A DNA stretch of 61,090 nt, the filler included, from Aduncisulcus paluster (taxonomy: Eukaryota), in assembly GCA_024181965.1 (NCBI GenBank). It is 12 parts of 12 records of this genome, joined end to end, with 100 filler letters (N's around TTAATTAATTAA, not from the genome) between each part and the next. Parts side by side here need not be neighbours in the genome. Positions count along the whole stretch, not along the records: positions 23,718 to 27,838 come from BQXS01011118.1; 11 more parts are not named here. One strand, written 5' to 3'. Under the pieces are notes generated by a model. It had not been told where the DNA came from and ran no database searches. It was given only the letters and a program-made list of their open reading frames with translations. A program made the translations under genes and the position numbers. Shown here piece after piece: positions 4,912 to 59,188 of the stretch. The stretch's first letter is position 1; the number at the start of each line of letters is the position of its first letter.

Positions 4912-5011
4912 NNNNNNNNNNNNNNNNNNNNNNNNNNNNNNNNNNNNNNNNNNNNTTAATTAATTAANNNNNNNNNNNNNNNNNNNNNNNNNNNNNNNNN
5001 NNNNNNNNNNN
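4912..5011. other. Artificial contig linker N44-TTAATTAATTAA-N44; identical linkers at 9726-9825, 14543-14642, 18839-18938, 23618-23717, 27839-27938, 34717-34816, 39260-39359, 44311-44410, 49575-49674, 57034-57133
   Basis: Eleven identical 100-nt spacers whose central 12-mer has stop codons in all six frames. ORFs run open into them. Confidence 0.98.
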
Positions 5012-8072: not shown

Positions 8073-9233
8073 TCATTCAGAAAATATCCTTCTTTTTCCA
8101 ATCCAATCGGATGTGAGAGTCTCACGCTCATTGGATTTCCATGGAAGAAAAGATAACCGTTCAGCTGCAATGGTTTCCTCGGGCAAAGTAAATACAAGGG
8201 AGAGGATCCGGAAAGTTCGACTATTCTTCTCTTCCCACTTTCCTTTCCCTTCAATCTCACACAGTACAACATTATCCAAATCAATAGGAAGGAAGTGCCA
8301 TTCATACCAATGTTCAGGTTCTGCGAATTCATACTTTTTGTTTATCTTCTTACCATCAGAATCGGTGAAAGTGAAGAGAAGAGAGGGTGAAATGTCATAC
8401 TTATCCACACACATATAAGCACCTTTCATTGGACTAGGTGATGGGAAAGGGATGGAAAGATGGGATAAAGGGACAACACTTTCCCCTTTTAACATTTCTT
8501 GTGCTTTTGAACTCTGATCATACTCCTCAGATTCCTTACTAAACGCATCATCCTTGCACTTAACCATTGAGAATGAAGGATTTACAAGCTTTGGATCATC
8601 TCGTAGAATGGGAATAGAATCTCTACCTTCAGATTCTTCATCTCCTTCCTTAACAAACTCTGCTTTCACAACAGGAGCTTCAGACCATAGTTTCTCTCTG
8701 GCTTCACGAGATTTGAGTTCTTCAGGAGATTCTTCTCTACTAATGAAAACAAGGTAGATGATACTAAACCACTCTTCCTCTCTTCCTTTCCCTGTAATCT
8801 CACACAAAACAACATCAGGGAGATCAACAGGAAGGAAATACCAAAGAACATCTTCAAATTCAGGAAATTCATATTTCTTGGATGTTTTATCGCCCTTTGA
8901 AGATGTGAGAGTGAAGATAAGATGTGATGGAGATGAAGAGTCACCATATAGACAGATATAAGCACCTTTCATTGGGGAAGATGAACAGAAAGGAATGGAG
9001 ATATGGGTAAATAGTCCATAATTACCCTCTCCTTTCATCATATCTTGTGCTTCAGAACCCTGATCGTAGTTTTCATCACCTTTTCCCTTTGTTCCATCAA
9101 TTGCTTTGATAGTTGGAAATGCTGCACCCTTAATATTGGGGGCATCTCCAGGAATTGGACAACAAGTCACATCTCCTTCATGAACAAACACAAGCTCCAC
9201 AGTTTGAATAACAGCATCTGTGGATGAACTCAT
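8073..9233 (-). CDS. Protein of two tandem copies of an uncharacterised ~170-aa domain ('domain X')
   Basis: Internal duplication of MMKGE..FTHISIPF..SPMKGAYIC...SPS(H/L)L.FT.T...G.K..KKYEF.E....W.FLP(V/I)DL..VVLCEI.GKG. Paralogues at 28358-29690 and 58049-59188. Confidence 0.85.
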   Translation of the reverse strand: MSSSTDAVIQTVELVFVHEGDVTCCPIPGDAPNIKGAAFPTIKAIDGTKGKGDENYDQGSEAQDMMKGEGNYGLFTHISIPFCSSSPMKGAYICLYGDSSSPSHLIFTLTSSKGDKTSKKYEFPEFEDVLWYFLPVDLPDVVLCEITGKGREEEWFSIIYLVFISREESPEELKSREAREKLWSEAPVVKAEFVKEGDEESEGRDSIPILRDDPKLVNPSFSMVKCKDDAFSKESEEYDQSSKAQEMLKGESVVPLSHLSIPFPSPSPMKGAYMCVDKYDISPSLLFTFTDSDGKKINKKYEFAEPEHWYEWHFLPIDLDNVVLCEIEGKGKWEEKNSRTFRILSLVFTLPEETIAAERLSFLPWKSNERETLTSDWIGKRRIFSE

Positions 9234-23717: not shown

Positions 23718-25548
23718 AATCTAAGGGGGTAATCATATGATAGGTCGGTGGTCAGGAATCGTGTATGGGCAGAAATGCATCCAGGCATCACCATTTGCAT
23801 TGAAGCTGGAGAAGAGGAAGAGGAAGAGGAAGAGGAAGAGGAGGAAGAGGAAGAGGAAGTGGGTGAAGCAGTACTATCATCATCAGTATAATTTGCTATA
23901 TTATTCCACCCGAGTTGAACATTGGCCACCTCTGTTTCTACTTCTAGAGTACAGACAGAGTAGTTTGTACAAACAGTCAGGGGACTAACAAGAAGTACTG
24001 GTGTCCTGAGGGTTGGATTAGAATCATACAAGGAAGAGGAGGAAGAGGAGGAAGAGGAAGAGGAAGAGGAAGAGGAAGAGGAAGTGGGTGAAGCAGTACT
24101 ATCATCATCAGTATAATTTGCTATATTATTCCACCCGAGTTGAACATTGGCCACCTCTGTTTCTACTTCTAGAGTACAGACAGAGTAGTTTGTACAAACA
24201 GTCAGGGGACTAACAAGAAGTACTGGTGTCCTGAGGGTTGGATTAGAATCATACAAGGAAGAGGAGGAAGAGGAGGAAGAGGAAGAGGAAGAGGAAGAGG
24301 AAGAGGAAGACTTATTCTTGGAAGAGGAACGATTAAAATCATATTTAGAGCTTGTTGCTGAAGAACAAGAATGAGAATGGGTATTGAATTTGTTTGACCC
24401 GTGGAGAGATTCATCGATAAGCATTTTAGATAATGTGTCATCTGAAGAAACCTCACCGAAACTCTTTAGAATATGGTCAGGAACACCACTTGGACAGGAT
24501 ATATTGTTGATTAAAACCCTCCCGGATCCACTATAAATGGTAGACTTGAATGAAACGACATTTATACGCGTCGAGGCACTGGATTCGCTTGAAACTCCGA
24601 AACCAAGGTATATGGGGGCAAAGATACTATATATATCGAGAATATCAAACATACCGGTTGCTACCGATATGGAACCGGTTGGGCCGTAATGAGAAATAGA
24701 TAGTGAATGCAATGTGGGGATTGGATTGGGGGGGGAGAAGAGAATGAAGAATTTGCAACCGGAGTTTGAATCAAAACATTTCCGCTGAATATGTTGACGT
24801 TGATCGAAGAGATTTGGGAATAAATATTAATAGGAATCTCAACAAGAATGCTGGATGAAGCACAAGAATATTTTGTTCGTTTACCAATAGAATAGAAAGA
24901 CGAGGATGAAAAGTATTGCGTTTCTTTTTTGTTCATGGTCGTTTCCTCTTTTAGTTCATCGAGCCACTCACGAGAACCATGGCCGAAAACAGTGACAAAA
25001 GAACTATCTCCAAGGTTTTTAATCAGAATATCGGGCCTTTTTTGCAATTCAAGTTGCTCTTTATCCATGTTATTCTCAATTTGAGTCAATAAAATCCGGT
25101 CTGACGGTTCTGTAAGGACGTTGATCGTAATAGAGCCAAAAAACACATTTAGGGTCATAAGAAGTTCTCCGTTCTCATTAATATATTTGTTGATCTCGTC
25201 TTGAGGGACATTATATGAGTTTTCCGCAAGATAGTAACGTAGAGACATGAAAGGATCAATAACATGTTCCACCGTAGCTGAATGACTTAATAATTTACAC
25301 GAATGCATTTGAGATAGATATGTAAGTGCCGACACTAATGAAAAAATGACTATTATCCAGAAGATCAAGCATTGGCAAGTAAAATGTGGTAACCCAACTA
25401 TTCGATCCCATAATGTTACTTGCTTGAAATATGAGACGTTCTCATCTTCATCTAACATCGAAAAATGAGACCAAAATATTCCGAAAAAGTACCTTGTGGC
25501 GAAGAAAACGTTTTGTCCATCTTCTCTGCACTTCAATATATCTGCCAT
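23718..25548 (-). CDS. Hypothetical single-pass membrane protein, probably one gene split by a frameshift at the G8 run 24728-24735; 3'-truncated
   Basis: ORFs 24661-25548 and 23718-24712 overlap, and the second has no ATG start. One extra base in the homopolymer fuses them (SSPPP-NPIPTLHSLSISHYG). N-terminal TM (LIFWIIVIFSLVSAL). The start may instead be the ATG at 25458. Confidence 0.6.
23810..24310. repeat. 225-bp direct tandem duplication bounded by GAGGAA microsatellites
   Basis: Identical unique segments start at 23859 and 24084. They encode LYDSNPTLRTPVLL...STASPT twice. Confidence 0.9.
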
Positions 25549-25563
25549 TTTTTAGGCATTAAC

Positions 25564-27838
25564 ATGGCAGGAGATGATCATGTTAAAGCATATCAAATCA
25601 AAAGAATGATGGAATACCTTGAAATAGTCAAATGCTCATCCAAATATAATATTTCCCTTCTTATACCACCAACAGAACAACTTGCAACAATAATAACAAT
25701 GATAACTAATGAGTATAATGATGCATCAATCATTAAATCGAGATATACCCGCTCGATGTTAATGGGAATGTTAGGAAAAGTTCAAAGCCTTCTTGACAAA
25801 CATTCTAAACTTCCCAAGAACGGTTTGGCCATTTATGTCGGAATTATATTAAATAAGGAAGGTAAAGAGAAGAAATTTAGTGTTGATTTTGAACCTTTTG
25901 CCCCCATAGAAGATTTTCTATATGAACTTGATGACAAGTTTCATGTGGCATCGTTAACGGCCAGTTTCCCTACAGAAATCGTAACTCTTCCACAGATAAA
26001 GTATTCTTCCCCCAAGAAATATCAGAAAGAACAAGAGAAACTTAAGACAGAAGTTTGTGGTCTAACAACCAAACCAATCCCAATCTCGCACTCTTTATCG
26101 CTATTATACCATGGATCAGCACATTCTCGTGCATTACTATCCCGATCTATCCCCGATAACGCTCTATTTGTCGGAGAATGTCGATTTGGTGGATCTAGTC
26201 GTGGAACCATTGAAATTCGTAATGAAGGGCGTGAAGATGGAATTGTTCTTGTTCAATGTACTCCTACACCCGATAAAGAGTATGATAATATCGGGTTTGT
26301 TCCCCATGGATGTGATTTGAAGGCTTTAGATCTAGAAATGCACAGCATAGTGAAAACAAAGACCAAAAACACAGATATCACAGATATCACAGGTATCACA
26401 AGTGAGGGTGGTGAACAACAAGAGTCAGAGAAACAAGAACACGAAGACCACCAAGATAGACCCAAGGAAGAGATAAGCTCTCAAACTCCTACAAAACCTT
26501 CAACAAAACCTGCGCTACCCTTCTCTTCCTCTCTCTTCTCTACGTTCCCTTTGTTTGCACTGTCTGTATCGCCCTCCATTTCACATCATAACCAACGTCT
26601 ATCACCTTCTTCCTTTGTAACTTTAGACGACGAGAAGGCTCCCGACCTTATCGATGCTCTTACTCCTCATTGCCGGTTATTACTTGTAAGTGCCGGTTGT
26701 AGCCGGTTTATTCAAGTTGAGTATCTCCCGCGTAAAGCCGGTCGTGAAGATCAATTACAGCAAGTAGCAGCAAAGAAAGAACTACAAGATGAGAAGAAAG
26801 AGAAAAGAGAGGGTGAAGATGAAACAAGAAGGAATCGGAATACATTACTGTCTTATTCAGATAATGATGGAGATAAAATAACCATAAACGATAATGAACT
26901 TATAAAGTTTGCAATGTGTGGAGTTCGTTCCTCTTCTCTACTCTCACATCTAAGTGTATTACAGAAAGCTATTACCACAGGGAAACATAACGAACACCAA
27001 TACATTAATGTTGATGAAGACAAACATGAAGGAGATGAAGAAGAACAGAAAGGAATTGAAGAAGAAAGAGAAGAAGAAGAAAGAGAAGAAGAAGAAGAAA
27101 GAGAAGAAGCAGGAGCTATGAGAACAGATCAGAAGAAGAAAGAGAAGAAGCAAAAGCAAAAAGATTCTTGGCAAGCTGGACGGAAATTGGGTGACAGAAA
27201 CCCTCTAGTTGGTGGCAGACAGAAATGGGGAAGAGCAGATGTTCGAGCAAGGAAAAGCGAGGAATCTAAACGCAAAGAGTTTGAAGTTGATGTTTTACAT
27301 TCTATTTGTCTTGGTCGTGTTATACGACACATTCACACTCATCGTAATTTGGACTTTCAGACTGTCGGTATTGGTTCCCAATATGTCTATCGTACAAATC
27401 TTACAGTCTCAAACACTCATTCAAATTCCATTGAAGTGATGCCAATTGTCCATTCTGCTCTTCAATCAAGTGGAGTAGTGACTATTACACCCAGAACGGC
27501 TGTTATACCTGCCAATTCACATATTAATTTCGTTGTTGCTCTGAATTGTCATCCTTCAGGAATTCGACAAGTGTTGCCTGTTGATGGAACACCAATGCTT
27601 TGGGGAGGTGGGAAAAGTAGTGAAGATCTTGGTATGGTTTATGCTGATATTGTTACCAATGGTTGGAAATCACGGAAATTCTCAACGACACTCTCTCAAA
27701 AACATGGACATGAACAAGAAGAAGCTATTATTACAGATCATGAAATTGGAGTTGATTTCTCTTGTGTTGCATTGGATTCTCCGATATCTTCAATGTTTCC
27801 TCATAATTTATATCCTTCCTTGAGTGAGAAAGTTGATA
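25564..27838 (+). CDS. eRF1 domain-1 (N domain) fusion protein with downstream Ig-like/ASH-like segments; 3'-truncated
   Basis: Residues 1-131 align with the eRF1 N domain: YQIKRMMEYLE...ISLLIPP..Q.....MITNEYNDASIIKSR...LPKNGLAIYVG.I...EGKEKK..VDFEPF.PI...LY..DDKFH. No GGQ domain follows. Later segments (LDFQTVGIG...LTVSN...ITPRTAVIPANS..NFVV) look like an ASH/MSP Ig-like fold. Confidence 0.8.
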
Positions 27839-27938
27839 NNNNNNNNNNNNNNNNNNNNNNNNNNNNNNNNNNNNNNNNNNNNTTAATTAATTAANNNNNN
27901 NNNNNNNNNNNNNNNNNNNNNNNNNNNNNNNNNNNNNN

Positions 27939-28394: not shown

Positions 28395-31300
28395 ATAGCA
28401 ATAGTTTTTCAGTTTTAGTGAAATAATATATTATTAACTTGTGATTTTCTTCCATTATTTTGTCCATATATTGAATCGTCATCCCTCTATTTTCACGACA
28501 CCTGTTTTATTGTTTCGTTTGTTATTTCTGCGATGAATGAATGTTTTTCCATAGCTTCTATCCGTTCGACCTAGGTTTATACATGAAGGAAATTGGGTAT
28601 GTATTCCAATTCCACGAGATGACCCCATTATCGTTAGTCCTGTGTATTCCAATATTAAAGGAACAAATTCTACATTCGATACAAGCGATAGCCAATATGA
28701 CAAGGGTGATTATGTTCAAAAAATGATGAAAGGTGAGCGTAATGAGGGATGTATTACTCATGTATCCCTCACTTTCTCACCAACTCCAATTCGTGGTGCT
28801 TTTATCAGTTTATGGGGTTCGACATCATCTCCAGCATATCTTATCTTCACGTTCACTTCCTCAAATGAAGCTAAAATATCTAAGAAATATGATTTTCCTG
28901 AGTTTCGGAATTATTCTTGGTTTTTCCTTCCTATTGATCTCTCTGATGTTGTTCTTTGTGAGATCAAAGGAAAAGGAAGACGTACTGAGGATTTCGATAT
29001 CATGTCACTCGCTTTCATTCGAAAAGAGACCATTGAAGAAGCTAAATCCCGAAAACAACGAATTTATTCCATCGAGAAACTATGGTCTGAATCTGTATGT
29101 TGTTATTAGAACACGATTATTGTTATTATATAATGTTTGTTAATTTATTATCATTTTTCAATTTATTTTTCATTTATTTATTTATTTATTTATTTATTTC
29201 TGTTACTCAGGATTTTGTTATAGCAGAGTACAAAAATGATGGTAATATTGAGGATATTCCTATTCCACGTGCCGATTCATATATTATTCCTCCTGATTAT
29301 GAAAAGATAATTGCCATTGATGATGGAAAGAGTAAGGAATCGAAATATTACAAAAGGAGTACAAAAGCAAGTGAAATGCTCAAAGGAAGGAATGGAGGTG
29401 TATATTTTTCACACATGGCCATCCCTTTTCCATCACCTAGTCCCATAAAAGGTGCTTATATATGTATGGACAAAAGTTATAGTTCACCCTCTCTTCTCTT
29501 CACTTTCACGAATTCTGATGGTCGGAAAATCCCCAAAAGGTATGAATTTGCAAAACCTAAAAAACAATCTGGATGGTTTTATCTCCAAATCGATCTGTTA
29601 AACGTTGTGAACTGTGAGATTAAAGGTCGAAATGAATGGGGATATCAATATAGCAGACATTCATGCATATGCTCCCTCGTATTTGTTAGAGGTGAAAGTA
29701 GCATTGTAGAACGGGATAGAATTATTCCTTCTGGTCCTGACACTGATTCTATTTTTAGCTCTCTAGCTAGGATAGAATCTTCTTCTTCTATTTATAGATT
29801 GATTAATGATCGGGAAGAGAAAGAAAAGAAAGCTCCAAAACATGATTCTTTCATATTGACTTCTAAATCAGACATCCAGAGATTACGCACTATTGGTCAT
29901 GGTGGGTTTGGAGAGGTTCTTCTTGTCAAAGTTAAGGGCATTCCTTTCCCGTGTGTTCTGAAGAAGATGCTTAAAATCGCGGATAAAAAGGTTGTGAAAG
30001 ATTGTCGAAAAGAATTTAAAACTCAACGTGAATTGTTTAACAACCCCAAATGTTTCAACCGTATATCACGTCCTTTGTATATTCTTGACCTGCTTGACTC
30101 CAATATGAAAGGTGAATATGGATTTATAATGGAATTTTGTGCTGGAGGCAGTGTAAGTTCATTTGCCAGGAAATGGTGTGCCGTTGAGAAGTATGAAAGT
30201 CAAGGGGAAGAAGAAGAATGCTCATCTTCAGAAGAAGATAGTGATGATCACAAATATTTTGATCCCATGACATTAAACCCTGTGAAAGTGAGTGCCTTAT
30301 GTGTTGGAATGATTGAGTGTCTTTCTGAAGTGTTTAGAGCAAAGAAGAGTCTTGTCCATCGAGACATTAAGCCTGACAACTTCCTTGTTCGTTTTGATCC
30401 TGATTCAAAGAAATGTACTGTTGTTCTCTCTGATCTTGGATTGGCACAGATCTTAGATTCCATATCATCTTCATCAACTACCAAATCAGGTTTGATTCAA
30501 CCCATTGAGTTTGAAAAAAGGAAGGGAAAAAAAGAAAGGAAAAAACAAAATCCATCCAAATGTGGAACTCTTGTGTACAACTCTTATGAAACCCTTCGAG
30601 ATGGCACCCAATCTCAGAAGAGTGATGGATATTCTCTTGGAATGTCGATTCTTGCTTTATTCTTATGTGAACATCCTTTTGTTTCATTGCCCATATTCAG
30701 AGAAGTTATAAAAAAGCACCAAGGAAACATGATTGAAATTAAGATAATGAAAACTCTTTTGGAATTGATGGAAAATAACATATATCCAAGACTTATTCAA
30801 TCTCCCTTGTTTAAATCTTTGTTAACCATTGAAGGTGGTAAATTCCAGCCTGTTTATTCCTGTCTGAATGAAGTGTTCACAGGTTTAACTCAACTCGATG
30901 TTGGCAAACGTATGAGTGTTCATGAAGCTCGTGAGAAAGTTCAATACATCAAACCTCTTCTTCCAAAGATTGGAGAAGGGTGGGAATGTCCATCCATTGA
31001 GGATATTGTGAAGACTCAGCTTGCCAAGCATAAAGGTGATTCTGGATGCATTGTTGAGGAAGATGCTTCAGATATTATGGGAGAATTGGCTTCTAAGTCT
31101 GAAGAAGTAATGTTTTCTGCGATGCTCTCCTCAAAAAGACAAAGTGAAGAATCTCGTTTCCATGTATCTGATTACGGTGAGATTATGTTAAAAGAATTGA
31201 AGCTTTCAATCAAAAGAACATGTTCACAGTCGGAAATTATATCTCTCTATAAAAAATCTCACTCAAAAGTCAAGTTTATCCTTGATTCATTACTCTTTTA

Positions 31301-32489
31301 TTCAGACCAATCACATATTTTGATCACATCATATCAAAAACTTTTCAATCTATGTTTTGAGTGTCTTTCCTTGTTCGTGAAGCATAAAGTTACAAAAGGA
31401 GATGGGACTTTGAAGGAAGATGAGGATGATATTGAGGTTATTCTTGATAGTTCTCTCATCAAGAACATTATTGACACTTTCTTGCCTTCAATGATCCGAG
31501 TTGAAAATATTCTGCGAGTGAAAGAAGAAGAGGAGGAAGAAGAAGGTGGAACTAGTGAAGCTGGGGTGAATTCTATCACAATGTTATTGTTTAGGATAAT
31601 TGCTGTTTCTACAGTTCATGTTGAATCCCTTTGTATTTCTATTTTCCCCCAAATCTCAGCACTTCTCTCCAAGATGTTTATTCTTGGCTTATCCAAGAAT
31701 TTTAAAGATTCTTTTATTGAGGATATACTAACAACATGCAGAAATATTGCATTTGCCAAAGATGATCCCACCAAGAACTCTCTTTTATCCCTTCTTCTCC
31801 CTCACATCTTACCTTGGATAAAGAAGTATCCTGACAAGAAGATCTTTTTCTTGTGGACAAACATCTTGAAGAATATCACCCTTGACAAAGATAACACCGA
31901 TCCTCATAAACATCGTTCCTCACAACTCTGGTTTATGTTCCATCCTGTCTTGGATGTGATTAAGGATTCTGCTTCCAAAGGTATTACATTCAATGATGAT
32001 GCTGTCATTCGCTGTTTATTGTTCTTTGCTAACTTGAGTTGCATTCCTTCCCAAGCTGTTGAAGTGTATTATTGTATTAAAGATGGTCTTCTTGATAGTT
32101 GGTTTGAGACGATAAAGAAGCAGAGTGAAGAAGGGAAAGATGATGGAAATCAAGAAAGTATAATTCGCTGTTTAGATTTCTTCGATCATATCATTTGTAT
32201 TTCCCAAGATACCAAAAATGAAATTCGTAAAGCCATTAAAGAACATCTCGATGTCTGGTTAGATCTTAACGGTAAGAGGAAGGAGAAGCTATTATCACAG
32301 TCGACATCTTTTTCGCATAGTTTTGTGGATGAACCACCAGATTATATGTCATTTTCAGGTAGAAGTTACGAAGAAGAATTGAATGAACCCTTAAATGAAG
32401 GATCTGAAGATACCCAACAACAACAATTCAGTGATTCCCATGAAGAAGAGGGATTATCTGAGTCTGGGATTGAGGAAAGTATTGAATAG
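28358..32489 (+). CDS. Domain-X x2 - Ser/Thr protein kinase - alpha-helical (ARM-like) domain protein; predicted exons 28358-28381, 28555-29094, 29211-32489
   Basis: Kinase motifs IGHGGFGEV, VLKK, HRDIKPDN, DLG, CGTLVY and SDGYSLG. Intron 29095-29210 (GTATGT...CAG) joins KLWSES|DFVIAEY in frame, matching the paralogue KLWSEAPVVKAEF. Intron 28382-28554 (GTATGT...CATAG) joins MHPTHSPR to LLSVRPRFIHEG in frame (less certain). Confidence 0.85.
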
Positions 32490-44410: not shown

Positions 44411-46411
44411 CATGAGCATTATATTAAAGCTATTGACAAGATCCTCGCTGACCCTACCATCACTGCCCACACCATCTCTGGTACTCTGAAGACTGGTGCC
44501 CAAGAACACTTCTACCTTGAGACACACACTGCTCTTGTTGTGCCCCATGACAGCATGGGAGATGTTGAGGTTTATACGACCACACAAAACACTACTGTCA
44601 CTCAACAAATGTGTGCACGTGTTCTTGGCATTGACATGTGTCGTGTGAGTGTCGGTGTGAGGAGACTTGGAGGAGCTTTTGGAGGGAAAGAAGCAGTGTT
44701 TAACTACACTTGTGCCGCGGCCGTTGCTGCTCAGAAGACTGGAAGACCCGTGTTCTTTGCTCTAGACCGAAAGGATGACACTGCATACTCTGGGAAAAAG
44801 CATCCCATGAACATTTATTACACCATTGGATGTGATTCCAAGGGTAAATTGACCGGTATCAAGGTTGATGTGTATGGAAATGGTGGTTACAGCCTTGATT
44901 TGAGTCGTGCTGTGTGTGAACGTGCTCTTCTACACATTGACAATGCTTATTATTTCCCTCATGTATACATCAGAGGAACGATGTGCAAGACAAACCTCCC
45001 CACAAACACTGCATTCAGAGGATTTGGAGCTCCTCAGACGTTGCTAGCTGTGGAAGAGGCTATGGAAAAACTCAGCATGGAAGCAGGAATTGACGTTGTT
45101 GACTTCAAGCGTCGTAATTTATATACAGAGGGCCAACTTACTCACTATGGAATGTCAGTGAATGGGACCTCCAATCTTCATGAATCTTGGGACAAATTGA
45201 TGCACAGTGCTGCTGTTGTGTCTCGTCGGAGAGCTGTCGCCGAGTTCAATGCCACCAACAGATTCATCAAGCGTGGAATCGGTGTGAGTCCTCTCAAGTT
45301 CGGTGTGGCTTTCTCTCAGACATTTTTGAACCAAGGAATGTCCCTTATTCATATCTACAAGGATGGCACTGTCCTGGTCTCACACGGTGGTATTGAGATG
45401 GGTCAAGGTGTTCACACGAAGATCCAACAGATTGTTGCTGATGAACTCCATGTTCCTCTGTCCTTTGTTCACATCAAAGAGAGCAAAACCGATTGTGTTC
45501 CCAACGCTTCCCCTACATCCGCCTCTACTGGCTCAGATATCAATGGAATGGCCGCCAAGCATGCCGCTGCTACCTTGTGGCAGCGTATCCTCCCATATGT
45601 CAAGGCTGAGCGTGAGAAGAGAAGCCTGAATGTTGATAATCCCATGTTTGTTCCCCGTGATATCGGCTTTGAGAGCGACCACCCTGAGGAGACCGATGAT
45701 GAATGTCTTGGTCTTGCCTCTGATTTCGATAGTGGCAGTTGGAGAAGTGCCATTGTTTCTGCTTGGTTTGCTCGTGTGTGTTTGTCGTGTCAAAGTTTCT
45801 ATCGTATTCCCATCAGTGGATACAGCTTCGTATCTGGGAAAGGTATTCCTTTCTCTTATTTCTCATTCGGGTGTGCAGTCTGTGAGGTGGAAATTGATAC
45901 TAGAACTGGACAAATGAGCAACGTGAGAACTGATATTATATTCGATGCTGGGAAGTCGTTGAATCCTGCCATCGATATTGGTCAGGTCGAGGGAGCATTC
46001 GTTCAAGGAATGGGATGGATTACAATGGAACAGATGGTCCAAATCGAACAACCTGGAAAAGACGGCAAAGGATCGGTTGATACCGGAAAGATTCTTTCGT
46101 CTGGACCTGGTAATTACAAAATCCCTGGAGCTCTCGATATCCCCCGTGACTTCAGGGTTTCTCTTCTCCCCCATTCTCTCAATCCCCTTGCTGTGAATAG
46201 ATCCAAGGGGGTTGGAGAGCCTCCTCTATGTTTGGCTGTTGTTGTCTATTGTGCTGTCCGTGATGCGGTCAGAAGTGCCAGGCAAAGTCATGGCACAAAG
46301 GGAGACTTTGACTTGAGAGTGCCAACAACCATGGAAAGTATTCGTCTCTGTTGTTCAGATTTCGTAACAGATCTTTATGGCTTATCTGATGAGAGAAGCA
46401 TTTCCAAATGA
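44411..46411 (+). CDS. XDH: Xanthine dehydrogenase/oxidase, molybdopterin-binding C-terminal portion (5'-truncated)
   Basis: Open from the contig start. QEHFYLE, GGAFGGKE, AFRGFGAPQ, GGIEMGQG, SLNPAIDIGQVEGAFVQG and SKGVGEPP. The Glu (GGKE), Arg (FRGFG) and catalytic Glu (GEPP) typical of XDH are retained. Confidence 0.93.
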   Translation, partial: HEHYIKAIDKILADPTITAHTISGTLKTGAQEHFYLETHTALVVPHDSMGDVEVYTTTQNTTVTQQMCARVLGIDMCRVSVGVRRLGGAFGGKEAVFNYTCAAAVAAQKTGRPVFFALDRKDDTAYSGKKHPMNIYYTIGCDSKGKLTGIKVDVYGNGGYSLDLSRAVCERALLHIDNAYYFPHVYIRGTMCKTNLPTNTAFRGFGAPQTLLAVEEAMEKLSMEAGIDVVDFKRRNLYTEGQLTHYGMSVNGTSNLHESWDKLMHSAAVVSRRRAVAEFNATNRFIKRGIGVSPLKFGVAFSQTFLNQGMSLIHIYKDGTVLVSHGGIEMGQGVHTKIQQIVADELHVPLSFVHIKESKTDCVPNASPTSASTGSDINGMAAKHAAATLWQRILPYVKAEREKRSLNVDNPMFVPRDIGFESDHPEETDDECLGLASDFDSGSWRSAIVSAWFARVCLSCQSFYRIPISGYSFVSGKGIPFSYFSFGCAVCEVEIDTRTGQMSNVRTDIIFDAGKSLNPAIDIGQVEGAFVQGMGWITMEQMVQIEQPGKDGKGSVDTGKILSSGPGNYKIPGALDIPRDFRVSLLPHSLNPLAVNRSKGVGEPPLCLAVVVYCAVRDAVRSARQSHGTKGDFDLRVPTTMESIRLCCSDFVTDLYGLSDERSISK

Positions 46412-46685
46412 AATTCAGATCTTTAACTTTTATTTCACTTCAATCTGATTTTAATTTTATCATTTTATAGTAGCAACTACCAATACCCTTTATGGGATAC
46501 CTTTATTTATCAATAAATTTCGATAACAACAGCAAATTTATGTTTTTTTTGTAAACTATTTTAAATATTAAACCCTTCCAAAAAAATCACAATTTTTTGT
46601 AATACAATGTGGTTGTATGGTTGAATTATCATTTATAAATATAAATTTCGTAAAGATCCGAGAGAAAATCAAATTTTCATAAATT

Positions 46686-46757
46686 TGCCGAGACGGAGAA
46701 TTGAACTCCGATTTGCCGGACCACAACCGGCTGTAATGGCCATTATACTATCTCAGC
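46686..46757 (-). tRNA. tRNA-His (GTG)
   Basis: Acceptor stem GCTGAGA/TCTCGGC, anticodon stem GCCGG/CCGGC with loop TTGTGGT, T arm CGGAG-TTCAATT-CTCCG, discriminator A. No intron and no encoded CCA. Confidence 0.93.
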
Positions 46758-47179
46758 ATGACAGAAAATTTTATGAAATATATAAAATAATTTAATTTCA
46801 AAAAATTCAATCATTGTCATATATCAGTCCATATAAAGTATTACCAAGACAATAAAAATAAAAAAACGTCGCCATTTATTGTGATATTTTTAATCAAACA
46901 AAGCCTGCTATTTTGGAATCATAAATCCAAAAATATAAAACGGCATAATAGGTGAACTAATAAGGATAAAAATATTCAAGATGAGGAATGAAGGTAAAAA
47001 TAAATCTAAGAGTTAAACAAAGACAATCTCATCTTCTCGGAAAAATATGCACATATAACGAAATAAATAACGATTGTCAATTATCAAAGTCGTGAAATAA
47101 TAATAAAACATGCGAATAAATAATAATAATAATAATAATAATAATATAAAAAAAAAAAAAAAAAAAAAAACCCTCAACA

Positions 47180-51752: not shown

Positions 51753-54700
51753 ATGAAAGATAAAGAACCCGATTATTTTTGTGATGGAATAAGCGATAGC
51801 TTTATCAAATACTCTGTCGTTATATTGGAGGGAAAAGAAGATAAAGAACAACCTAAACCAAAGAATATTACCAATAACAAACGTAGAACCACGGAAAAAC
51901 CTATTGAAGCAAAAATATCTTCTCCAATTAAGAAACAGGCGCTCATTCAAGAATCTCATGTCGTTGAGCCACCTTCTCCCTCTCCCCCGAAAGAAATACC
52001 AAAGGAAATTGAAGAACCGTCACCAAAGCCTATAAAATCCCCCGTAGTACCAAAGAAAAAACAAAAGAAGCAGTATAATAACAAGAAAGCAACATCTATG
52101 ATAAAGGCAGGAAGGAAAAAGCTAGAATCTGAATATATATCATGTTTTCTTGCATATTTGCCTTTCAATAGGGCTATTTGGTTCAGCAAACGTCTTTCTA
52201 TTCTGCGTTGTCCAAAAATACGTATTTTGAATGATGATTCCTTGTTTTCTGTCATTCCACAGGAATCCATTAACATTATATTGCATTCATTGTTTAAAAA
52301 CATCAATTATCAACGCCCATTACTTAAAAATGAAACCGTTAAGACTCCCAAGAAGCGAGGAAGAGGTCGAGGTCGAGGAAGAAGCCCTATCGTTGGTACA
52401 CCCTCTTCTTCCCATGCTAACTTCCACTCTCGTTCCATATCCAGTCGTAGTTCCCACTTAGCCCTGTTTTCCTCCTTCCCCTCGCTTGAAGCTGTTGATA
52501 AGTTAAACATGCTGATTGCTCCACCTTTCTCCCCTCTTCCTTCACTTAGCCTTTCCTTTCCTCCCCTTCCTGTGCAGTTACCAGATATTGAAGATGAGAT
52601 TGATGAGTGGAAGAGTGCTTTGTATAAGAACTATCTCGATAAGGTTGAGGAGATCAAACATTCCACTGCCGCTCACAACATTGCCAATAGCAATGATATA
52701 AATGCTCCCTCAATACCTTTGGAGATCCCGAAGTTTGTTCTGCCCCTTCTCCCGACCTCTATGTCTTCAAAGCTCAACCAGAAGAAGACTTTTTCATCTA
52801 TGCTCCCGGCTGAGCTATTCTCTTCCATTTATAGGACTATTTTGCTATGCGGGAGGGGTGACGTAACCTTTTATAGTAATTTATTGGCCGCTGGAATATG
52901 TGGAACGTTATCAGAACTCTGGAAGGGTTCTATCATCGAGGACTGGGAAATAGAGTATCTAATCGATCCCAAATACTCTTCTAAAAGGTCTAGATCCAAG
53001 AAGAAAGAGAAAGGAGAGCAGAGTGCCGAAGAAGCGTTTGAAGAAAAGGAAGAGAAGGAAGAGAAGGAAGAGAGGAAAGAAGAAGAGGAAGAGGAAGATG
53101 AAAGTCCTCCATCGCCGTGCAGACTTGTAGATGAACACAGACTTGTAGATGAACAGCAATTGTATAGTATAGATTTAAAGAAAAAAGATCTTGGACAGAT
53201 ATCTGGACACGATCACAACAAACTTGCTACCGAGGATAATAATCCTTCTCATAATTCTATTTCTGTATCAGCTTCTTCTTCAGACATTCTCAATTCCAAA
53301 AATAGATTTCCAAATACGTTTATAAGTGATGAATCTGCCGCCATTGGTGTTCTTGGATCTCTACGAAGACTAGCAAAGACTCAGACACATTACGATTGTA
53401 TGCATCTTGCTGTTGCCACTATCTGTATTAATTCTGTCTTGAATGATCCGAATGGCATCCCTGACGTCTCTCTCGAAGGTGTTGTCCGAGGTGTGTACCG
53501 GGCTGAAGAAGAGAGAGAGGAGAGGGAGAGAGAAAAGAAGAAGAGGGAGAGAGAGAGAGAGGAAGAGAGAAGAGAAAGAGAAGAGGAGGAAGAAGAGGAA
53601 AGAAAAGAGAAGGAAGAGAAAGGAAAGGGAATTACTATCAGGCCAACCTTCTTCTTCTCTCTCTTCTTCCTCAGCATCAACTGAAACCTCATTATCGGAT
53701 ACCATTGGCTGTGAACCTTCAACCGTAGCCACTCAATCTGATGTCATTGATGATACTGAATCTGCTCTCATACAATCTCGAGTGAATCGAAACCTTGGTT
53801 TTACCCACTCAGTTTATGCCTTCGGAAGTACCTTAGAATCGTCTCTGTGTGAAATGAATCTTGGATTGCCAAATACTTATTATTATGACGGAGAGGAAGA
53901 GGAAGAAGAAGAAGAAGAGGAAGAGGAAGAGGAGGAAGAGGAAGAAGACGAAGAAGACGAAGAAGAACAAGAGGAAGAAGAAGACGAAGACGAAGACGAA
54001 GAATTAACAATGCAACAATATGTTGACAAAGTTCTTAAAAAAGACTCTGAAGAACTCTTAGAACTTTCCTCTAAATTGATATTACCGTCCACTTTATCTC
54101 CCAGGAAAAAGAAAGAGAAGAAAAACAAGAAGAAGAAATCCAAAGATATTCATGGACTTGAATCAGTTCTCTCTTCTTCTCTCTCTTCTTCCTCAGCATC
54201 AACTGAAACCTCATTATCGGATACCATTGGCTGTGAACCTTCAACCGTAGCCACTCAATCTGATGTCATTGATGATACTGAATCTGCTCTCATACAATCT
54301 CGAGTGAATCGAAACCTTGGTTTTACCCACTCAGTTTATGCCTTCGGAAGTACCTTAGAATCGTCTCTGTGTGAAATGAATCTTGGATTGCCAAATACTT
54401 ATTATTATGACGGAGAGGAAGAGGAAGAAGAAGAAGAAGAGGAAGAGGAAGAGGAGGAAGAGAAAGGAAAGGGAATTACTATCAGGCCAACCTTCTTCTT
54501 CTCTCTCTTCTTCCTCAGCATCAACTGAAACCTCATTATCGGATACCATTGGCTGTGAACCTTCAACCGTAGCCACTCAATCTGATGTCATTGATGATAC
54601 TGAATCTGCTCTCATACAATCTCGAGTGAATCGAAACCTTGGTTTTACCCACTCAGTTTATGCCTTCGGAAGTACCTTAGAATCGTCTCTGTGTGAAATG

Positions 54701-57033
54701 AATCTTGGATTGCCAAATACTTATTATTATGACGGAGAGGAAGAGGAAGAAGAAGAAGAAGAGGAAGAGGAAGAGGAGGAAGAGAAAGGAAAGGGAATTA
54801 CTATCAGGCCAACCTTCTTCTTCTCTCTCTTCTTCCTCAGCATCAACTGAAACCTCATTATCGGATACCATTGGCTGTGAACCTTCAACCGTAGCCACTC
54901 AATCTGATGTCATTGATGATACTGAATCTGCTCTCATACAATCTCGAGTGAATCGAAACCTTGGTTTTACCCACTCAGTTTATGCCTTCGGAAGTACCTT
55001 AGAATCGTCTCTGTGTGAAATGAATCTTGGATTGCCAAATACTTATTATTATGACGGAGAGGAAGAGGAAGAAGAAGAAGAAGAGGAAGAGGAAGAGAAG
55101 GAAGAGAAAGGAAAGGGAATTACTATCAGGCCAACCTTCTTCTTCTCTCTCTTCTTCCTCAGCATCAACTGAAACCTCATTATCGGATACCATTGGCTGT
55201 GAACCTTCAACCGTAGCCACTCAATCTGATGTCATTGATGATACTGAATCTGCTCTCATACAATCTCGAGTGAATCGAAACCTTGGTTTTACCCACTCAG
55301 TTTATGCCTTCGGAAGTACCTTAGAATCGTCTCTGTGTGAAATGAATCTTGGATTGCCAAATACTTATTATTATGACGGAGAGGAAGAGGAAGAAGAAGA
55401 AGAAGAGGAAGAGGAAGAGGAGGAAGAGGAAGGAAAGGGAATTACTATCAGGCCAACCTTCTTCTTCTCTCTCTTCTTCCTCAGCATCAACTGAAACCTC
55501 ATTATCGGATACCATTGGCTGTGAACCTTCAACCGTAGCCACTCAATCTGATGTCATTGATGATACTGAATCTGCTCTCATACAATCTCGAGTGAATCGA
55601 AACCTTGGTTTTACCCACTCAGTTTATGCCTTCGGAAGTACCTTAGAATCGTCTCTGTGTGAAATGAATCTTGGATTGCCAAATACTTATTATTATGACG
55701 GAGAGGAAGAGGAAGAAGAAGAAGAAGAGGAAGAGGAAGAGGAGGAAGAGGAAGAAGACGAAGAAGACGAAGAAGAACAAGAGGAAGAAGAAGACGAAGA
55801 CGAAGACGAAGAATTAACAATGCAACAATATGTTGACAAAGTTCTTAAAAAAGACTCTGAAGAACTCTTAGAACTTTCCTCTAAATTGATATTACCGTCC
55901 ACTTTATCTCCCAGGAAAAAGAAAGAGAAGAAAAACAAGAAGAAGAAATCCAAAGATATTCATGGACTTGAATCAGTTCTCTCTTCTTCTCTATCTTCTT
56001 CTCTATCTTCTTCTCTCTCTACCTTCTCATCTTCACTGACAGCTTCCCTAACTATAAATAGATTCCAATATACTCATCTCGATCATATTCATGCGACTGT
56101 AATGCGTGATAGAAGAGCCAAGATACGAGAACTTATTAGGACTATGGCAGAGAAGTTGGCTGGTTTAAGCGACAGAGTGAGTGATTCTGAAGAGGAAAGA
56201 GTACAACACGAGACTATCAATGATATCCGAAAGATTTTGCGGGAAGTACGAGAGGAGAATGAATGGGGTGAGGCTGGGAATGAAATTGAAGAGAGACAAC
56301 GAGTCAGTCAATACAAAAAGCTTTTGCGACAGAGAGAAGAAGAGGAAGAGCGGAAGAGGAGAGAAGAAGAAGAGAGGAAAAAGGAGGAAGAACAAGAGAA
56401 AAAAGAAGAGGAAGAGAGAGAGAGAGAAAATGGGAAAGAAGAAGGAAAAGCGGAAGAGAAGAAAGGAGAGAAGGAATCGTTATCTAAATTGTCCAAATAT
56501 ACAAAGAAAAAGAAGACATTAGTTAACAAGGAAAAGAAAGAAAAAGAAAGGAAAGAGAAGAAGGAAAGAAGAGCAAGTAGAAGAAATAGTTCTGGAAATT
56601 CCAATGCTGGTCCATCTTCTTCTTCGACTTCTTCTCAATCCTCTAATTCTGGTCTAAAAATAGATTCTAACACCGGTGTGGCTCATTCGAACGATGAAGA
56701 AAAATCATATTCCAAGTATTACCATGAAAAAGATTCTCATTTCAAAAAATCTCTAAAATCTAAAATATCTCTCCCTTCTTCTCTTGAGTCATGTTCCATA
56801 CCTTCTCAATGTTCTATTCTTAGCTCAGACAGTGCGTTATCTGCCCTTCCTGTGCCCCCTTCTCTTCCTTTCTTCAATTCACCCCTGTTGGATGCTGCTA
56901 GAAGCTCTGCATACCGTCATGATCCTCGATTCCAAAGCCTATGTAGATGTTTTGAAAGATATTACCCAGCTCGGCCCGCAGAGTTGACTTCTCTTGACTC
57001 TGGTATGAGTATGCTCTCCTCATCATCTCACAC
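51753..57033 (+). CDS. Large low-complexity hypothetical protein, disrupted by a frameshift in the GA tract (~53505-53620) and by tandem repeats; 3'-truncated
   Basis: Consecutive ORFs in shifting frames (51753-53684, 53443-54528 ... 55349-linker) share repeated blocks. Confidence 0.55.
53620..55990. repeat. Six near-identical copies of a ~250-bp core (mostly 322-bp period), plus two copies of a ~240-bp extension
   Basis: Core TCTCTCTTCTTCCTCAGCATCAACTG starts at ~53657, 54180, 54501, 54823, 55145 and 55467. Junctions fall in GAA/GAG and TCT microsatellites. Confidence 0.92.
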
Positions 57034-58048
57034 NNNNNNNNNNNNNNNNNNNNNNNNNNNNNNNNNNNNNNNNNNNNTTAATTAATTAANNNNNNNNNNN
57101 NNNNNNNNNNNNNNNNNNNNNNNNNNNNNNNNNCATCAGCATATTTTGATATTCTCCATTAAACTGAAGTGAACTATACCTACATTCTCTAATACCCAAT
57201 TTTTAATCAATACTTGGTTTCATTGCTTCTTATTCACTCTCGACTCCTTTCTAAAATGACTTAGCTTATTTCGATGGCTCTAGAGAGTAGCATCATGATG
57301 CCTTGTCTTGCTAAATCTTCTCAATATACGTTTGCTGTTCCCTTTTTTCAGAAATTTCTATTGATTACCGTACACTCATTCCTTCCTACTCCTCGGTTCT
57401 TTAGTTACACACTATGTGCAACTTTTGTTCACTAGTTTTTTCACTACATTGTTTACTTGGTAGAGTTTGCCTTTCGGTGTCTTCGTCTCTATGCTGAATA
57501 CACTACAATCAGTATCCTTCTTGTCTGAAACTTTATCGTACTGCAGTCAGTCTGTTACCACCTAATATACCCTTTAATATCCTTCAATGCCTTTCTTTTC
57601 TCTTTTTATTTCTGTCTTTTTAGTATCTCCCCTTCCCTAATAAATGCATCCAGTTTTCGGATATTTTGGATAGTTTTCTCTCGAGGGGAATTAACACATA
57701 GTGACGCTATTTAAATTTTAATATATTATTAAATACATAATTTTAGATTAATAAATTATTAAATTATCTTAAGAAATGTATAATATGATGATTTAGAGTC
57801 GATCTCCATTTTTTGCTACAAATTCTATTTATTTTGCATTATTTGTATGTTAAATATAATTTATATTGGATTATGTATTCATTGTTTTTCCTCTTTTCAT
57901 TATTGTCGATTTACTTTATTATTTTTAACAAATATGCGATTTTTGTCTTACTTGTGCCTATTTTGACCATAATTCCTGATCTTTTTCGTCGATAAAATAT
58001 TATTAATGTCATAATATAAAGATTATATTCTGCGTTACACCATTAATA

Positions 58049-59188
58049 ATGAGTTCACCAAAATCTGCAATCTCCAGTCCAAGAATAGAAGAAATGGAAG
58101 TTCAAATCATTAATCCAGAGTTTATTCATAATGGCAATTGCCATTGTATTCCAATTCCAAGAGATTCCCCAATAATTCGGAGAATGGATATTTTTTCAAT
58201 CAAAGCTAGAAATGAAACCAAGAAATCCGATGATAAAACATTCGATCAAAGTTACAACGCACAACATATGATGAAAGGAGAGTGGAATGATGGAGAATTT
58301 ACTCATATTTCCCTTCCTTTCCGTCCCATATCCTCTCTTACTGGCTTAAAAGGTGTTTATATCTGTATATCCAATGTTTTCGAAAGAGATTCGCCTCCAT
58401 CGCATCTTATATTTACTTTTACATCTTCAAAGGGGGAGAAAATATCCAAGAAATATGATTTTTTTAAAAAAATTTATGGTGATTATTGGTATTTCCTTCC
58501 TGTTGATCTCTCTGATGTTGTTCTGTGTGAGATTACAGGGAAAGGAAGGATAAAATCGGAGTTTAAAATCTCTTCTCTGGCTTTTATTCGTGAAGAAACC
58601 CCTGAAGAAACTATAGTTTATAAAACCAGAGATAAACTCTGGTGTGAAACTCCAGTTGTGAAACCAGAGTTTATTAAGGAAGGACGCTCAGAAATTCATG
58701 GTGGAGATTCTATTCCCATTCCTCGTGATGATCCAACGATTGTTGATCCTTTATTCTCAATGGTTAAGGGGAAACTTGATTCGATGAGTAAGGAATCTGA
58801 GAGCTATGAACAAAATTTCCAAGTCCAAAAAATGTTAAAAGGAGAATGTAGTGTAACTTTATCCCATCTTTCCATTCCATTTCCATCACCTTGTCCAATG
58901 AAAGGTGCTTATATCTGTGTTCATAAATATTTAAGTTCACCCTCTCTTCTCTTCACTTTCACTGATTGTGATGGTAAGAAGACCTTCAAGAAGTATGAAT
59001 TCACAAGAGCTGGACACAGTTATGAATGGTATTTCCTTCATATTGATTTAGATAATGTTGTATTGTGTGAGATTGAAGGGAAAGGAAGATGGAATTTGAA
59101 AAAAAGTCGAGATTTTTGTATACAATCTCTTGTATTTACTATGCCGGAGGAACCAAGTGGTGGATTAGCCACCAAATTTGATGAATAA
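58049..59188 (+). CDS. Two-copy domain-X protein, paralogue of 8073-9233
   Basis: Long near-identical blocks with the 8073-9233 product (FLPVDL.DVVLCEITGKGR, LSHLSIPFPSP.PMKGAY.CV.KY..SPSLLFTFTD.DGKK, IDLDNVVLCEIEGKG.W). Confidence 0.88.
   Translation: MSSPKSAISSPRIEEMEVQIINPEFIHNGNCHCIPIPRDSPIIRRMDIFSIKARNETKKSDDKTFDQSYNAQHMMKGEWNDGEFTHISLPFRPISSLTGLKGVYICISNVFERDSPPSHLIFTFTSSKGEKISKKYDFFKKIYGDYWYFLPVDLSDVVLCEITGKGRIKSEFKISSLAFIREETPEETIVYKTRDKLWCETPVVKPEFIKEGRSEIHGGDSIPIPRDDPTIVDPLFSMVKGKLDSMSKESESYEQNFQVQKMLKGECSVTLSHLSIPFPSPCPMKGAYICVHKYLSSPSLLFTFTDCDGKKTFKKYEFTRAGHSYEWYFLHIDLDNVVLCEIEGKGRWNLKKSRDFCIQSLVFTMPEEPSGGLATKFDE

What the first reader, a model, noticed from the sequence alone, without database searches (positions are those of the whole stretch)
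25564..27838. Orphan eRF1 stop-codon-recognition domain with rewritten decoding motifs, fused to a non-release-factor protein
Seen: the first ~131 aa (25564-25956) align end to end with eRF1 domain 1. All three stop-recognition motifs are altered: GTS reads SKY, TASNIKS reads DASIIKS, and YxCxxxF reads YELDDKF. No GGQ-bearing M domain appears in the following ~620 aa, which are Ig/ASH-like and charged segments. Known: these motifs decode stop codons, and GGQ is required for peptide release. Inference: this is not the working eRF1 but a repurposed domain, perhaps an RNA/ribosome-binding module, termination modulator or decoy. The Giardia/hexamitid lineage includes stop-codon reassignments, so such paralogues would matter if the host is a fornicate.
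Basis: partly seen in the sequence, partly recalled or inferred. Interest (0 to 1): 0.75.

Follow-up and report, generated by a model that had tools for sequence, protein, structure and literature searches.

The report
Release-factor fragment fused to ciliary protein
In a free-living flagellate, an old, still-conserved copy of the stop-codon-reading domain of release factor eRF1 has lost most of its codon-reading residues and forms the front end of a giant flagellum-type scaffold protein, a pairing I found nowhere else and whose purpose is untested.

Summary
Residues 1-133 are an eRF1 N domain (Pfam E 1.9e-10) with GTS, TASNIKS and YxCxxxF changed as described. The frame runs off the contig and continues over four more contigs to about 2,300 residues, with no GGQ and several ASH/Hydin-type Ig domains (central-pair type; CFAP74 is my best guess, not shown). 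Contigs from two runs of one sample bridge the junction. The genome has two canonical eRF1 loci with all motifs and uses all three stops, so the genetic-code angle fails. Against that eRF1 the domain is 43% identical, indel-free and synonymously saturated; simulations need omega near 0.25 or lower. The motifs are not specially rewritten (11 of 17 kept, against 35 of 71 elsewhere), though 4 of 6 base-reading residues are lost. The genome scatters broken fragments of both parent genes, which offers an origin. Best reading: an old captured fragment, kept folded as a decoding-dead N-terminal module of a ciliary scaffold. RNA or ribosome binding is not excluded. It is single-copy, with no relative found; the scan had not reported it on other DNA.

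The parts
25564..25962 (+). Diverged eRF1 N (stop-codon recognition) domain, aa 1-133; homology stops at the N/M domain boundary
   Evidence: Pfam PF03463; phmmer against PDB; eRF1 profile 128 bits over aa 3-133; 55 of 129 aa identical to the genome's own eRF1, no indel
25639..25647 (+). GTS motif position, reads SKY
   Evidence: alignments
25720..25740 (+). TASNIKS position, reads DASIIKS (T58 and N61 equivalents lost; A59, S60, I62, K63, S64 kept; R65 and R68 just behind also kept)
25921..25941 (+). YxCxxxF position, reads YELDDKF (C127 equivalent lost; Y125, D128, F131 kept)
25963..26130 (+). Junction and linker; no significant remnant of the eRF1 M domain
   Evidence: 808 of 1,615 scored shuffles reach the observed score; one contig in each of two runs crosses it with no joint
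26131..26930 (+). Probable first ASH/Ig-like domain, broken by low-complexity inserts (read by eye; no family hit)
   Evidence: inference from the translation; Pfam gave no hit on sub-pieces
27016..27270 (+). Acidic, then basic, helical low-complexity segment
   Evidence: translation; helix in a low-confidence model
27271..27800 (+). ASH/Hydin-type Ig-like domain
   Evidence: ESM Atlas feature score 0.94, 10 of the 10 best family hits in one clan, TM 0.47-0.60 to Hydin/CFAP65-type models; Pfam ASH E 0.01, under its cut-off
27664..27838 (+). Contig end; 175-nt exact overlap with G000:C1482. The frame continues via C4661/C1983, C8054 and C11096 to a TAG stop at about aa 2,301
27839..27938 (.). 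Artificial linker between unrelated contigs (N runs around a stop-in-all-frames 12-mer); not genomic
   Evidence: 11 identical linkers in the window
23718..25458 (-). Head-to-head neighbour gene of unknown family; one frame once a G missing from the assembly at 24727 is counted
   Evidence: both runs show the extra G; frames checked

Best explanation
An old gene-fragment duplication copied the 5' part of the host's own eRF1 gene and joined it in frame to a ciliary multi-ASH scaffold gene (central-apparatus type; CFAP74 is the best guess). The eRF1 piece now supplies the start codon and a folded 133-residue N-terminal module. It cannot terminate translation: it has no GGQ or M domain and no C domain for eRF3, and 4 of 6 base-reading residues are gone. 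Selection keeps the fold, most likely as a structural cap or protein-contact module in the axonemal complex. SHOWN: homology, the fusion in DNA, missing M and C domains, intact canonical eRF1, single copy, constraint on the amino-acid sequence since the duplication, fragment scattering in this genome. INFERRED: origin by that same process, translation from Met1, ciliary location, a structural role, CFAP74 identity.
For: Constraint: third-position identity 0.32, pS 0.84 (saturated), dN 0.59. Two-branch simulation: 0 of 400 runs reach that third-position value at omega 1 or 0.5, and 15 of 400 at 0.25; changes are more conservative than neutral (11 of 400); 9 of 12 Gly/Pro kept (9 of 400). No indel and no low-complexity window in the domain, against 5-10% of windows in the rest. 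GC3 0.29 matches the adjoining frame (0.26), not canonical eRF1 (0.37). It groups with the host's eRF1 (90/84) and shares 7 of 32 of its derived residues. Origin: broken 72-99% copies of the gene's 3' part lie on 6 other contigs, broken eRF1 pieces on 2, and P0003 is a database chimera built from such a piece. Partner: ASH/Hydin Ig by Atlas for two regions (0.94 each). ASH proteins are central-apparatus components (PMC6548120 and PMC7999657, passages).
Against: No homologue of the fusion was found, so constraint cannot be dated to after the fusion. Hydrophobic-core retention is not significant in the fairer test (23 of 26; 103 of 400). The tree branch is at the length cap, so the grouping may be long-branch attraction, and an unrelated row shares 5 of the 32 derived residues. 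All ASH Pfam hits lie under their cut-offs; CFAP74 rests on one E 0.029 hit and recalled domain order, and the CFAP74 family searches of the genome did not list this gene. The AlphaFold model of the domain is poor (pLDDT 51.5; rmsd about 9 A to eRF1). The last contig join is a 26-nt overlap, although in frame and found at only those 2 places.
Confidence: 0.55

Rival explanations
1. The domain was co-opted as a codon-blind RNA or ribosome tether that couples the ciliary scaffold to translating ribosomes or mRNA (co-translational or local assembly of axonemal complexes).
For: Kept: the equivalents of R65 and R68 (rRNA contacts), K63, E55 and the three loop stabilisers A59, I62, S64. Lost: the base readers T32, T58, N61, C127 (roles from PMC4605324 passages). 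The surface hairpin around aa 100-112 is among the best-kept stretches (7 of 10).
Against: Motif retention is not above background (p 0.29). The domain is not more basic (K+R 17, D+E 17; canonical 18 and 16). eRF1 normally reaches the A site with its M and C domains and eRF3 (established knowledge), and all of these are absent.
Confidence: 0.15
2. The divergence and constraint built up in a former stand-alone eRF1 paralogue; its N domain was grafted on late and is now a tolerated passenger that only donates a promoter and start codon.
For: Pairwise data cannot place the constraint before or after the fusion. The genome makes chimeras now (P0003). eRF1 paralogues with fast N domains are known in other eukaryotes (PMC3359775 passages).
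Against: No donor or diverged M or C remnant: PF03463 gives 4 loci (pelota, 2 canonical, this one); PF03464 gives 2 (canonical, pelota); PF03465 gives 5, all pelota, canonical or near-identical fragments. The DNA is single-copy. GC3 matches the partner. Homology ends at the domain boundary.
Confidence: 0.2
3. Termination modulator or decoy tied to a stop-codon reassignment.
For: Fornicates include code variants with a changed GTS motif (PMC9161772 passages).
Against: Canonical eRF1 keeps 17 of 17 motif residues. TGA, TAA and TAG all close long frames (20, 10, 4 of 34). Standard-code frames reach 3,536 and 4,156 aa. The domain sits on a 2,300-aa ciliary-type scaffold.
Confidence: 0.04
4. Assembly chimera, or an untranslated dead fragment upstream of the true start.
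For: The assembly is fragmented (23,235 contigs). The Atlas record of this protein begins at Met46. Whether run X2 is RNA is only a guess.
Against: One contig per run crosses the junction with no differences or joints (X1 24321-27055; X2 25588-27055; both runs are one sample, and X1 may be the source of the window). Met1 lines up with the canonical start, and aa 3-45 stay open and alignable (13 of 43 identical). Only about 4% of 400 unconstrained neutral runs stay stop-free.
Confidence: 0.06

Closest known systems
eRF1 N domain (Pfam PF03463; human eRF1, PDB 1dt9, 2llx)
   Same: Gap-free alignment over 133 aa, 39-44% identity to most eRF1s; keeps E55, K63, S64, R65, R68, Y125, D128, F131 equivalents
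   Different: No M (GGQ) or C domain; G31, T32, S33, T58, N61, C127 changed; fused to about 2,170 unrelated residues
Pelota/Dom34 and the baeRF-1 / VLRF-1 (Vms1/ANKZF1) offshoots of aeRF1 (PMC6514570, passages; the names Vms1/ANKZF1 are recalled)
   Same: Release-factor domains reused in new architectures
   Different: The offshoots in those passages keep the central domain and lose or replace the N domain; here only the N domain is kept. The genome's pelota is a separate gene
Multi-ASH central-apparatus proteins (CFAP74/FAP74, Hydin, CFAP65, CFAP47, DLEC1)
   Same: Size near 2,300 aa (FAP74 is 204 kDa); tandem Hydin/CFAP65-type Ig domains; weak Ig-CFAP74_4th hit (E 0.029)
   Different: No curated cut-off reached; long low-complexity inserts; the N-terminus is an eRF1 domain. 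The coiled-coil and first Ig domain that I recall for CFAP74 are not evident
Variant-code eRF1s (Iotanema, ciliates; PMC9161772 and PMC3359775, passages)
   Same: Changed GTS motif and fast N-domain evolution
   Different: Those are complete, working release factors in organisms with reassigned stops; this host has an unaltered eRF1 and uses three stops

Membership tests
eRF1 class-1 release factor | N domain homologous to PF03463 | tested here: met
eRF1 class-1 release factor | Intact GTS, TASNIKS and YxCxxxF motifs | tested here: not met
   2 of 6 base-contact residues kept
eRF1 class-1 release factor | M domain with GGQ | tested here: not met
   GGQ in 0 of 6 pieces of the frame; no profile hit
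eRF1 class-1 release factor | C domain (PF03465) for eRF3 binding | tested here: not met
eRF1 class-1 release factor | N-domain fold retained | tested here: inconclusive
   model pLDDT 51.5, with helix and strand order like eRF1; Foldseek hits eRF1 but rmsd about 9 A, and the model used an eRF1 alignment
Multi-ASH (Hydin/CFAP65/CFAP74-type) ciliary proteins | Tandem ASH/Hydin-type Ig domains | tested here: met
   Atlas feature scores 0.94 for two separate regions, structure hits for one; Pfam only under cut-off
CFAP74 orthologues | CFAP74-specific Ig domains (PF24771, PF24770, PF24778, PF24798) above cut-off and in order | tested here: inconclusive
   PF24798 is the only hit on one piece (E 0.029, 14.9 of 28 bits); genome-wide family searches did not list this gene; PDB sequence searches found no CFAP74
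CFAP74 orthologues | Reciprocal best match or tree placement with CFAP74 | not testable with these tools
   no CFAP74 sequence was returned by any search
CFAP74 orthologues | Located in the C1d projection with CFAP46, CFAP54 and CFAP221 | not testable with these tools
   needs proteomics or imaging; the PF14858 search rang nowhere, controls included, so it says nothing
Variant-code release factor | Host reassigns a stop codon | tested here: not met

The most novel reading that the evidence does not exclude
A eukaryote has turned the stop-codon sensor of eRF1 into a codon-blind RNA or ribosome-binding module on a central-pair scaffold, giving a direct physical link between translation and axoneme assembly, and a use of the eRF1 N domain outside release factors that I found no report of.
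Probability: 0.15. Interest if true: 0.75.

Novelty: new variant of a known kind. Interest (0 to 1): 0.42.

Why it matters
The release-factor offshoots in the review passages I read keep the catalytic-fold domain and drop the codon sensor. This gene does the reverse and keeps the sensor under selection on a ciliary scaffold. It is a natural test of which eRF1 N-domain residues serve the fold and which serve decoding. It also suggests that this genome's habit of scattering gene fragments sometimes yields a lasting new protein. Its weight is limited because it is one gene in one genome with no function shown, and it says nothing about genetic-code change.

Tried and rejected
GGQ-loop remnant: a PKK at aa 150 recalls the eRF1 loop, but 808 of 1,615 scored shuffles (of 2,000) score as well; rejected. 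Genetic-code link: rejected. Targeted rewriting of the motifs: not significant. Homologue searches: none at E<=0.001 among 79 candidates of similar length; 1 ordinary eRF1 among 116 longer candidates; 3 hits for the downstream ASH region, one same-species chimera and two unrelated repeat proteins; 0 of 446 metagenome stretches; no eRF1 above 73% identity among the best 80 of 528 metagenome loci. These searches use word filters or representatives, so absence is weak. The eRF1 N domain of the fusion was not run through the 1.84-billion search; that one job went to the ASH region. The single-sequence fold of aa 1-758 was unusable (pLDDT 34.5; no Foldseek hit). A separate gene holding a CFAP74 N-terminal half was not identified: the one PF24771 hit (C11188) scores better as PF14874, and C11198, C11670 and C10119 do not look like it by eye. 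Expression: no RNA holder is on record. Run X2 is RNA only by guess; its contigs leave 25472-25587, between the two head-to-head starts, uncovered where X1 runs through. With one sample this is not used as evidence. No complex prediction was sent, because no binding claim needed it. Literature: searches returned no paper on an eRF1 N-domain-only fusion (listings only; subscription journals are mostly missing; no supplements were read, and fornicate genome supplements could list this gene). Earlier scan notes: none on this.

Full report
Setting. The window is not one stretch of chromosome: 11 identical linkers join 12 contigs. The finding lies on the piece 23718-27838, which is G000:C11118. The host is a fornicate flagellate: a protein 95% identical to part of this gene is named Aduncisulcus paluster by its source, and earlier scan notes on this genome give the same name (unchecked AI notes).

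The observation. The frame 25564-27838 is open for 758 aa. Pfam gives eRF1_1 at aa 26-132, E 1.9e-10, and nothing else at E<=0.01. phmmer against the PDB aligns aa 2-134 to human eRF1 without a gap. A profile from 29 eRF1s matches aa 3-133 at 128 bits and stops at the end of the N domain.

The gene is three times longer than reported. The contig end overlaps C1482 exactly over 175 nt. The frame continues through C4661/C1983 and C8054 and, by a 26-nt in-frame overlap found at only those 2 places in the genome, into C11096, where it runs 1,289 aa to a TAG. The total is about 2,301 aa; GGQ occurs in 0 of 6 pieces and the eRF1 profile finds nothing beyond aa 133. The last join is the weakest link.

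The fusion is not an obvious assembly error. In each of two public runs one contig crosses the junction with no other letters and no joint: X1 24321-27055 and X2 25588-27055. Both runs are one sample, X1 may be the source of the window, and X2 is RNA only by guess, so transcription is not shown. The DNA from 25300 to 26900 has a single match in the genome.

The partner. ESM Atlas puts aa 570-758, and separately aa 235-700 of the C11096 piece, with Hydin/CFAP65/ASH Ig domains at 0.94; in each case the 10 best family hits share a clan, which a third of shuffled proteins also achieve, and the first region also gets TM 0.47-0.60 structure hits. Pfam hits are all under cut-off: ASH E 0.01, Ig-CFAP74_4th E 0.029, Hydin Ig E 0.17. 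ASH proteins are central-apparatus components with a possible microtubule-binding role (PMC6548120 and PMC7999657, passages), and CFAP74 belongs to the C1d projection (PMC11651342, passages). The order of Ig domains resembles CFAP74 from its second Ig domain on, which would mean that eRF1 replaced its first part. That comparison is recalled, not tested: four CFAP74 family searches of the genome did not list this gene, and PDB searches found no CFAP74.

The working eRF1 is elsewhere and ordinary. PF03463 finds 4 loci: pelota, two canonical eRF1 starts and this gene. The canonical copies are identical over the 516 nt they share, and one contig reaches GGQ. They keep 17 of 17 motif residues. Of 34 distinct frames of 300 aa or more, in the window and 17 fetched loci, 20 end in TGA, 10 in TAA and 4 in TAG; eRF1 ends in TAA, pelota in TGA and this gene in TAG. 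Standard-code frames reach 4,156 aa. So no stop is reassigned, unlike Iotanema, where a GTS change in the working eRF1 goes with UAG read as Gln (PMC9161772, passages).

Age and constraint. Over 129 codons the domain shares 55 residues with the host's eRF1, with no indel; position identities are 0.55, 0.62 and 0.32; pS is 0.84 (saturated) and dN 0.59. In a two-branch simulation matched on the 88 positions where host eRF1 equals the consensus (46 kept), 0 of 400 runs reach the third-position value at omega 1 or 0.5, and 15 of 400 at 0.25. Replacements are more conservative than neutral (11 of 400) and Gly/Pro are kept (9 of 12; 9 of 400), but hydrophobic retention is not significant (23 of 26; 103 of 400). 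The mutation model was assumed, not fitted. The domain has no low-complexity window, against 5-10% in the rest, and its GC3 matches the partner. In a 40-row tree (37 rows drawn at random from the distinct references) it joins the host eRF1 at 90/84 on a capped long branch. Of 32 host-derived positions it shares 7, keeps the ancestral residue at 8 and has a third at 17; the best unrelated row shares 5. The 118 references are the top hits of one search, three long proteins (P0007-P0009) left out, and are biased to conserved eRF1s. I read this as an old duplicate of the host's gene, with moderate support.

What happened to the motifs. Using residue roles from the human termination complex (PMC4605324, passages), the domain keeps 2 of 6 base-contact residues (E55, K63), 3 of 3 loop stabilisers and 2 of 2 rRNA-binding arginines. 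Overall, 11 of 17 motif positions are kept against 35 of 71 other conserved positions (p 0.29), so 'rewritten' overstates it: decoding was lost as the whole domain drifted within its fold. The kept arginines are the only hint of nucleic-acid binding, and the domain's charge is neutral. The AlphaFold model is too poor to confirm the fold.

Origin. This genome scatters gene pieces. Broken copies of the 3' part of this gene, 72-99% identical, lie on 6 other contigs. Broken eRF1 pieces lie on 2 contigs; one has stretches 90-97% identical to the canonical gene, the other a 98% stretch of 46 nt, and they are 85% identical to each other. P0003 joins such a piece to a foreign N-terminus. The eRF1-ASH gene looks like an old product of this process that survived. 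No diverged donor or M/C remnant was found, though these searches score only the best candidates.

Mechanism and rivals. Most likely (0.55) the domain is a folded, decoding-dead N-terminal module of a ciliary scaffold, kept for structure or protein contact. Next come a late graft from a lost paralogue (0.2), an RNA or ribosome tether (0.15), an artefact or untranslated piece (0.06) and a termination decoy (0.04). None of these functions was tested.

Novelty. The aeRF1 offshoots in the passages I read keep the central domain and lose or replace the N domain (PMC6514570), and the known extra eRF1 genes are described as whole eRF1 genes (PMC3359775, passages). Paper searches listed nothing on an N-domain-only fusion; sequence searches found no relative; scan notes had none. 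All of these have limited reach. It is a new architecture made from two known parts by a known process, in one genome so far: real, odd and testable, but narrow. Interest 0.42.

Noticed in passing
window, 11 places (first at 4912-5011, last at 57034-57133): The window is 12 unrelated contigs joined by identical artificial linkers, so gene neighbourhood across linkers means nothing.
   Followed up: yes
window 24727: Both runs carry one G more than the assembly in a G run; counting it merges the two minus-strand frames (25548-24661 and 24652-23718) into one gene of unknown family.
   Followed up: yes
G000:C11824 end, C10087 both ends, C12305 start (L031, L032, L052): Canonical eRF1 seems to be a recent tandem duplicate around a cyclin-like gene (by eye); the shared middle is collapsed in the assembly, and 590 nt at the 3' side are 99.8% identical.
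   Followed up: partly
G000:C12501, C12497, C12695, C11026, C11010, C10025, C10004, C11033: Scattered broken fragments of the ASH gene and of eRF1 at 72-99% identity; the database protein P0003 is a chimera made from such a piece.
   Followed up: partly
L007, L010, L011, L029: Small overlapping contigs differ in the length of a poly-Ser tract and by single residues, which explains the assembly break; alleles or slippage variants.
   Followed up: partly
G000:C10018, C17, C12326, C10119, C12475, C9689, C11188, C11198, C11670: Other ASH/Ig ciliary-type genes, with frames up to 4,156 aa; C10018 and C17 look like CFAP65 and Hydin by recall only; C12326 and C10119 show internal near-duplicates at scaffold gaps.
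   Followed up: partly
window 8073-9233, 29097-32489, 58049-59188: Members of a repeated two-module family without Pfam hit, one fused to a kinase; they appear to be the family described in earlier notes on this genome.
   Followed up: no
window 44555-46411 and 46685-46758: C-terminal molybdopterin-binding part of a xanthine-dehydrogenase-type enzyme, followed by a tRNA-His gene.
   Followed up: no
window 53370-55500: Tandem repeats of about 320 nt that give several near-identical frames in an acidic, Ser-rich gene.
   Followed up: no
P0006: A divergent but complete metagenomic eRF1 (405 aa) with an inserted residue before its NTS-type motif; it sits on a very long branch.
   Followed up: no
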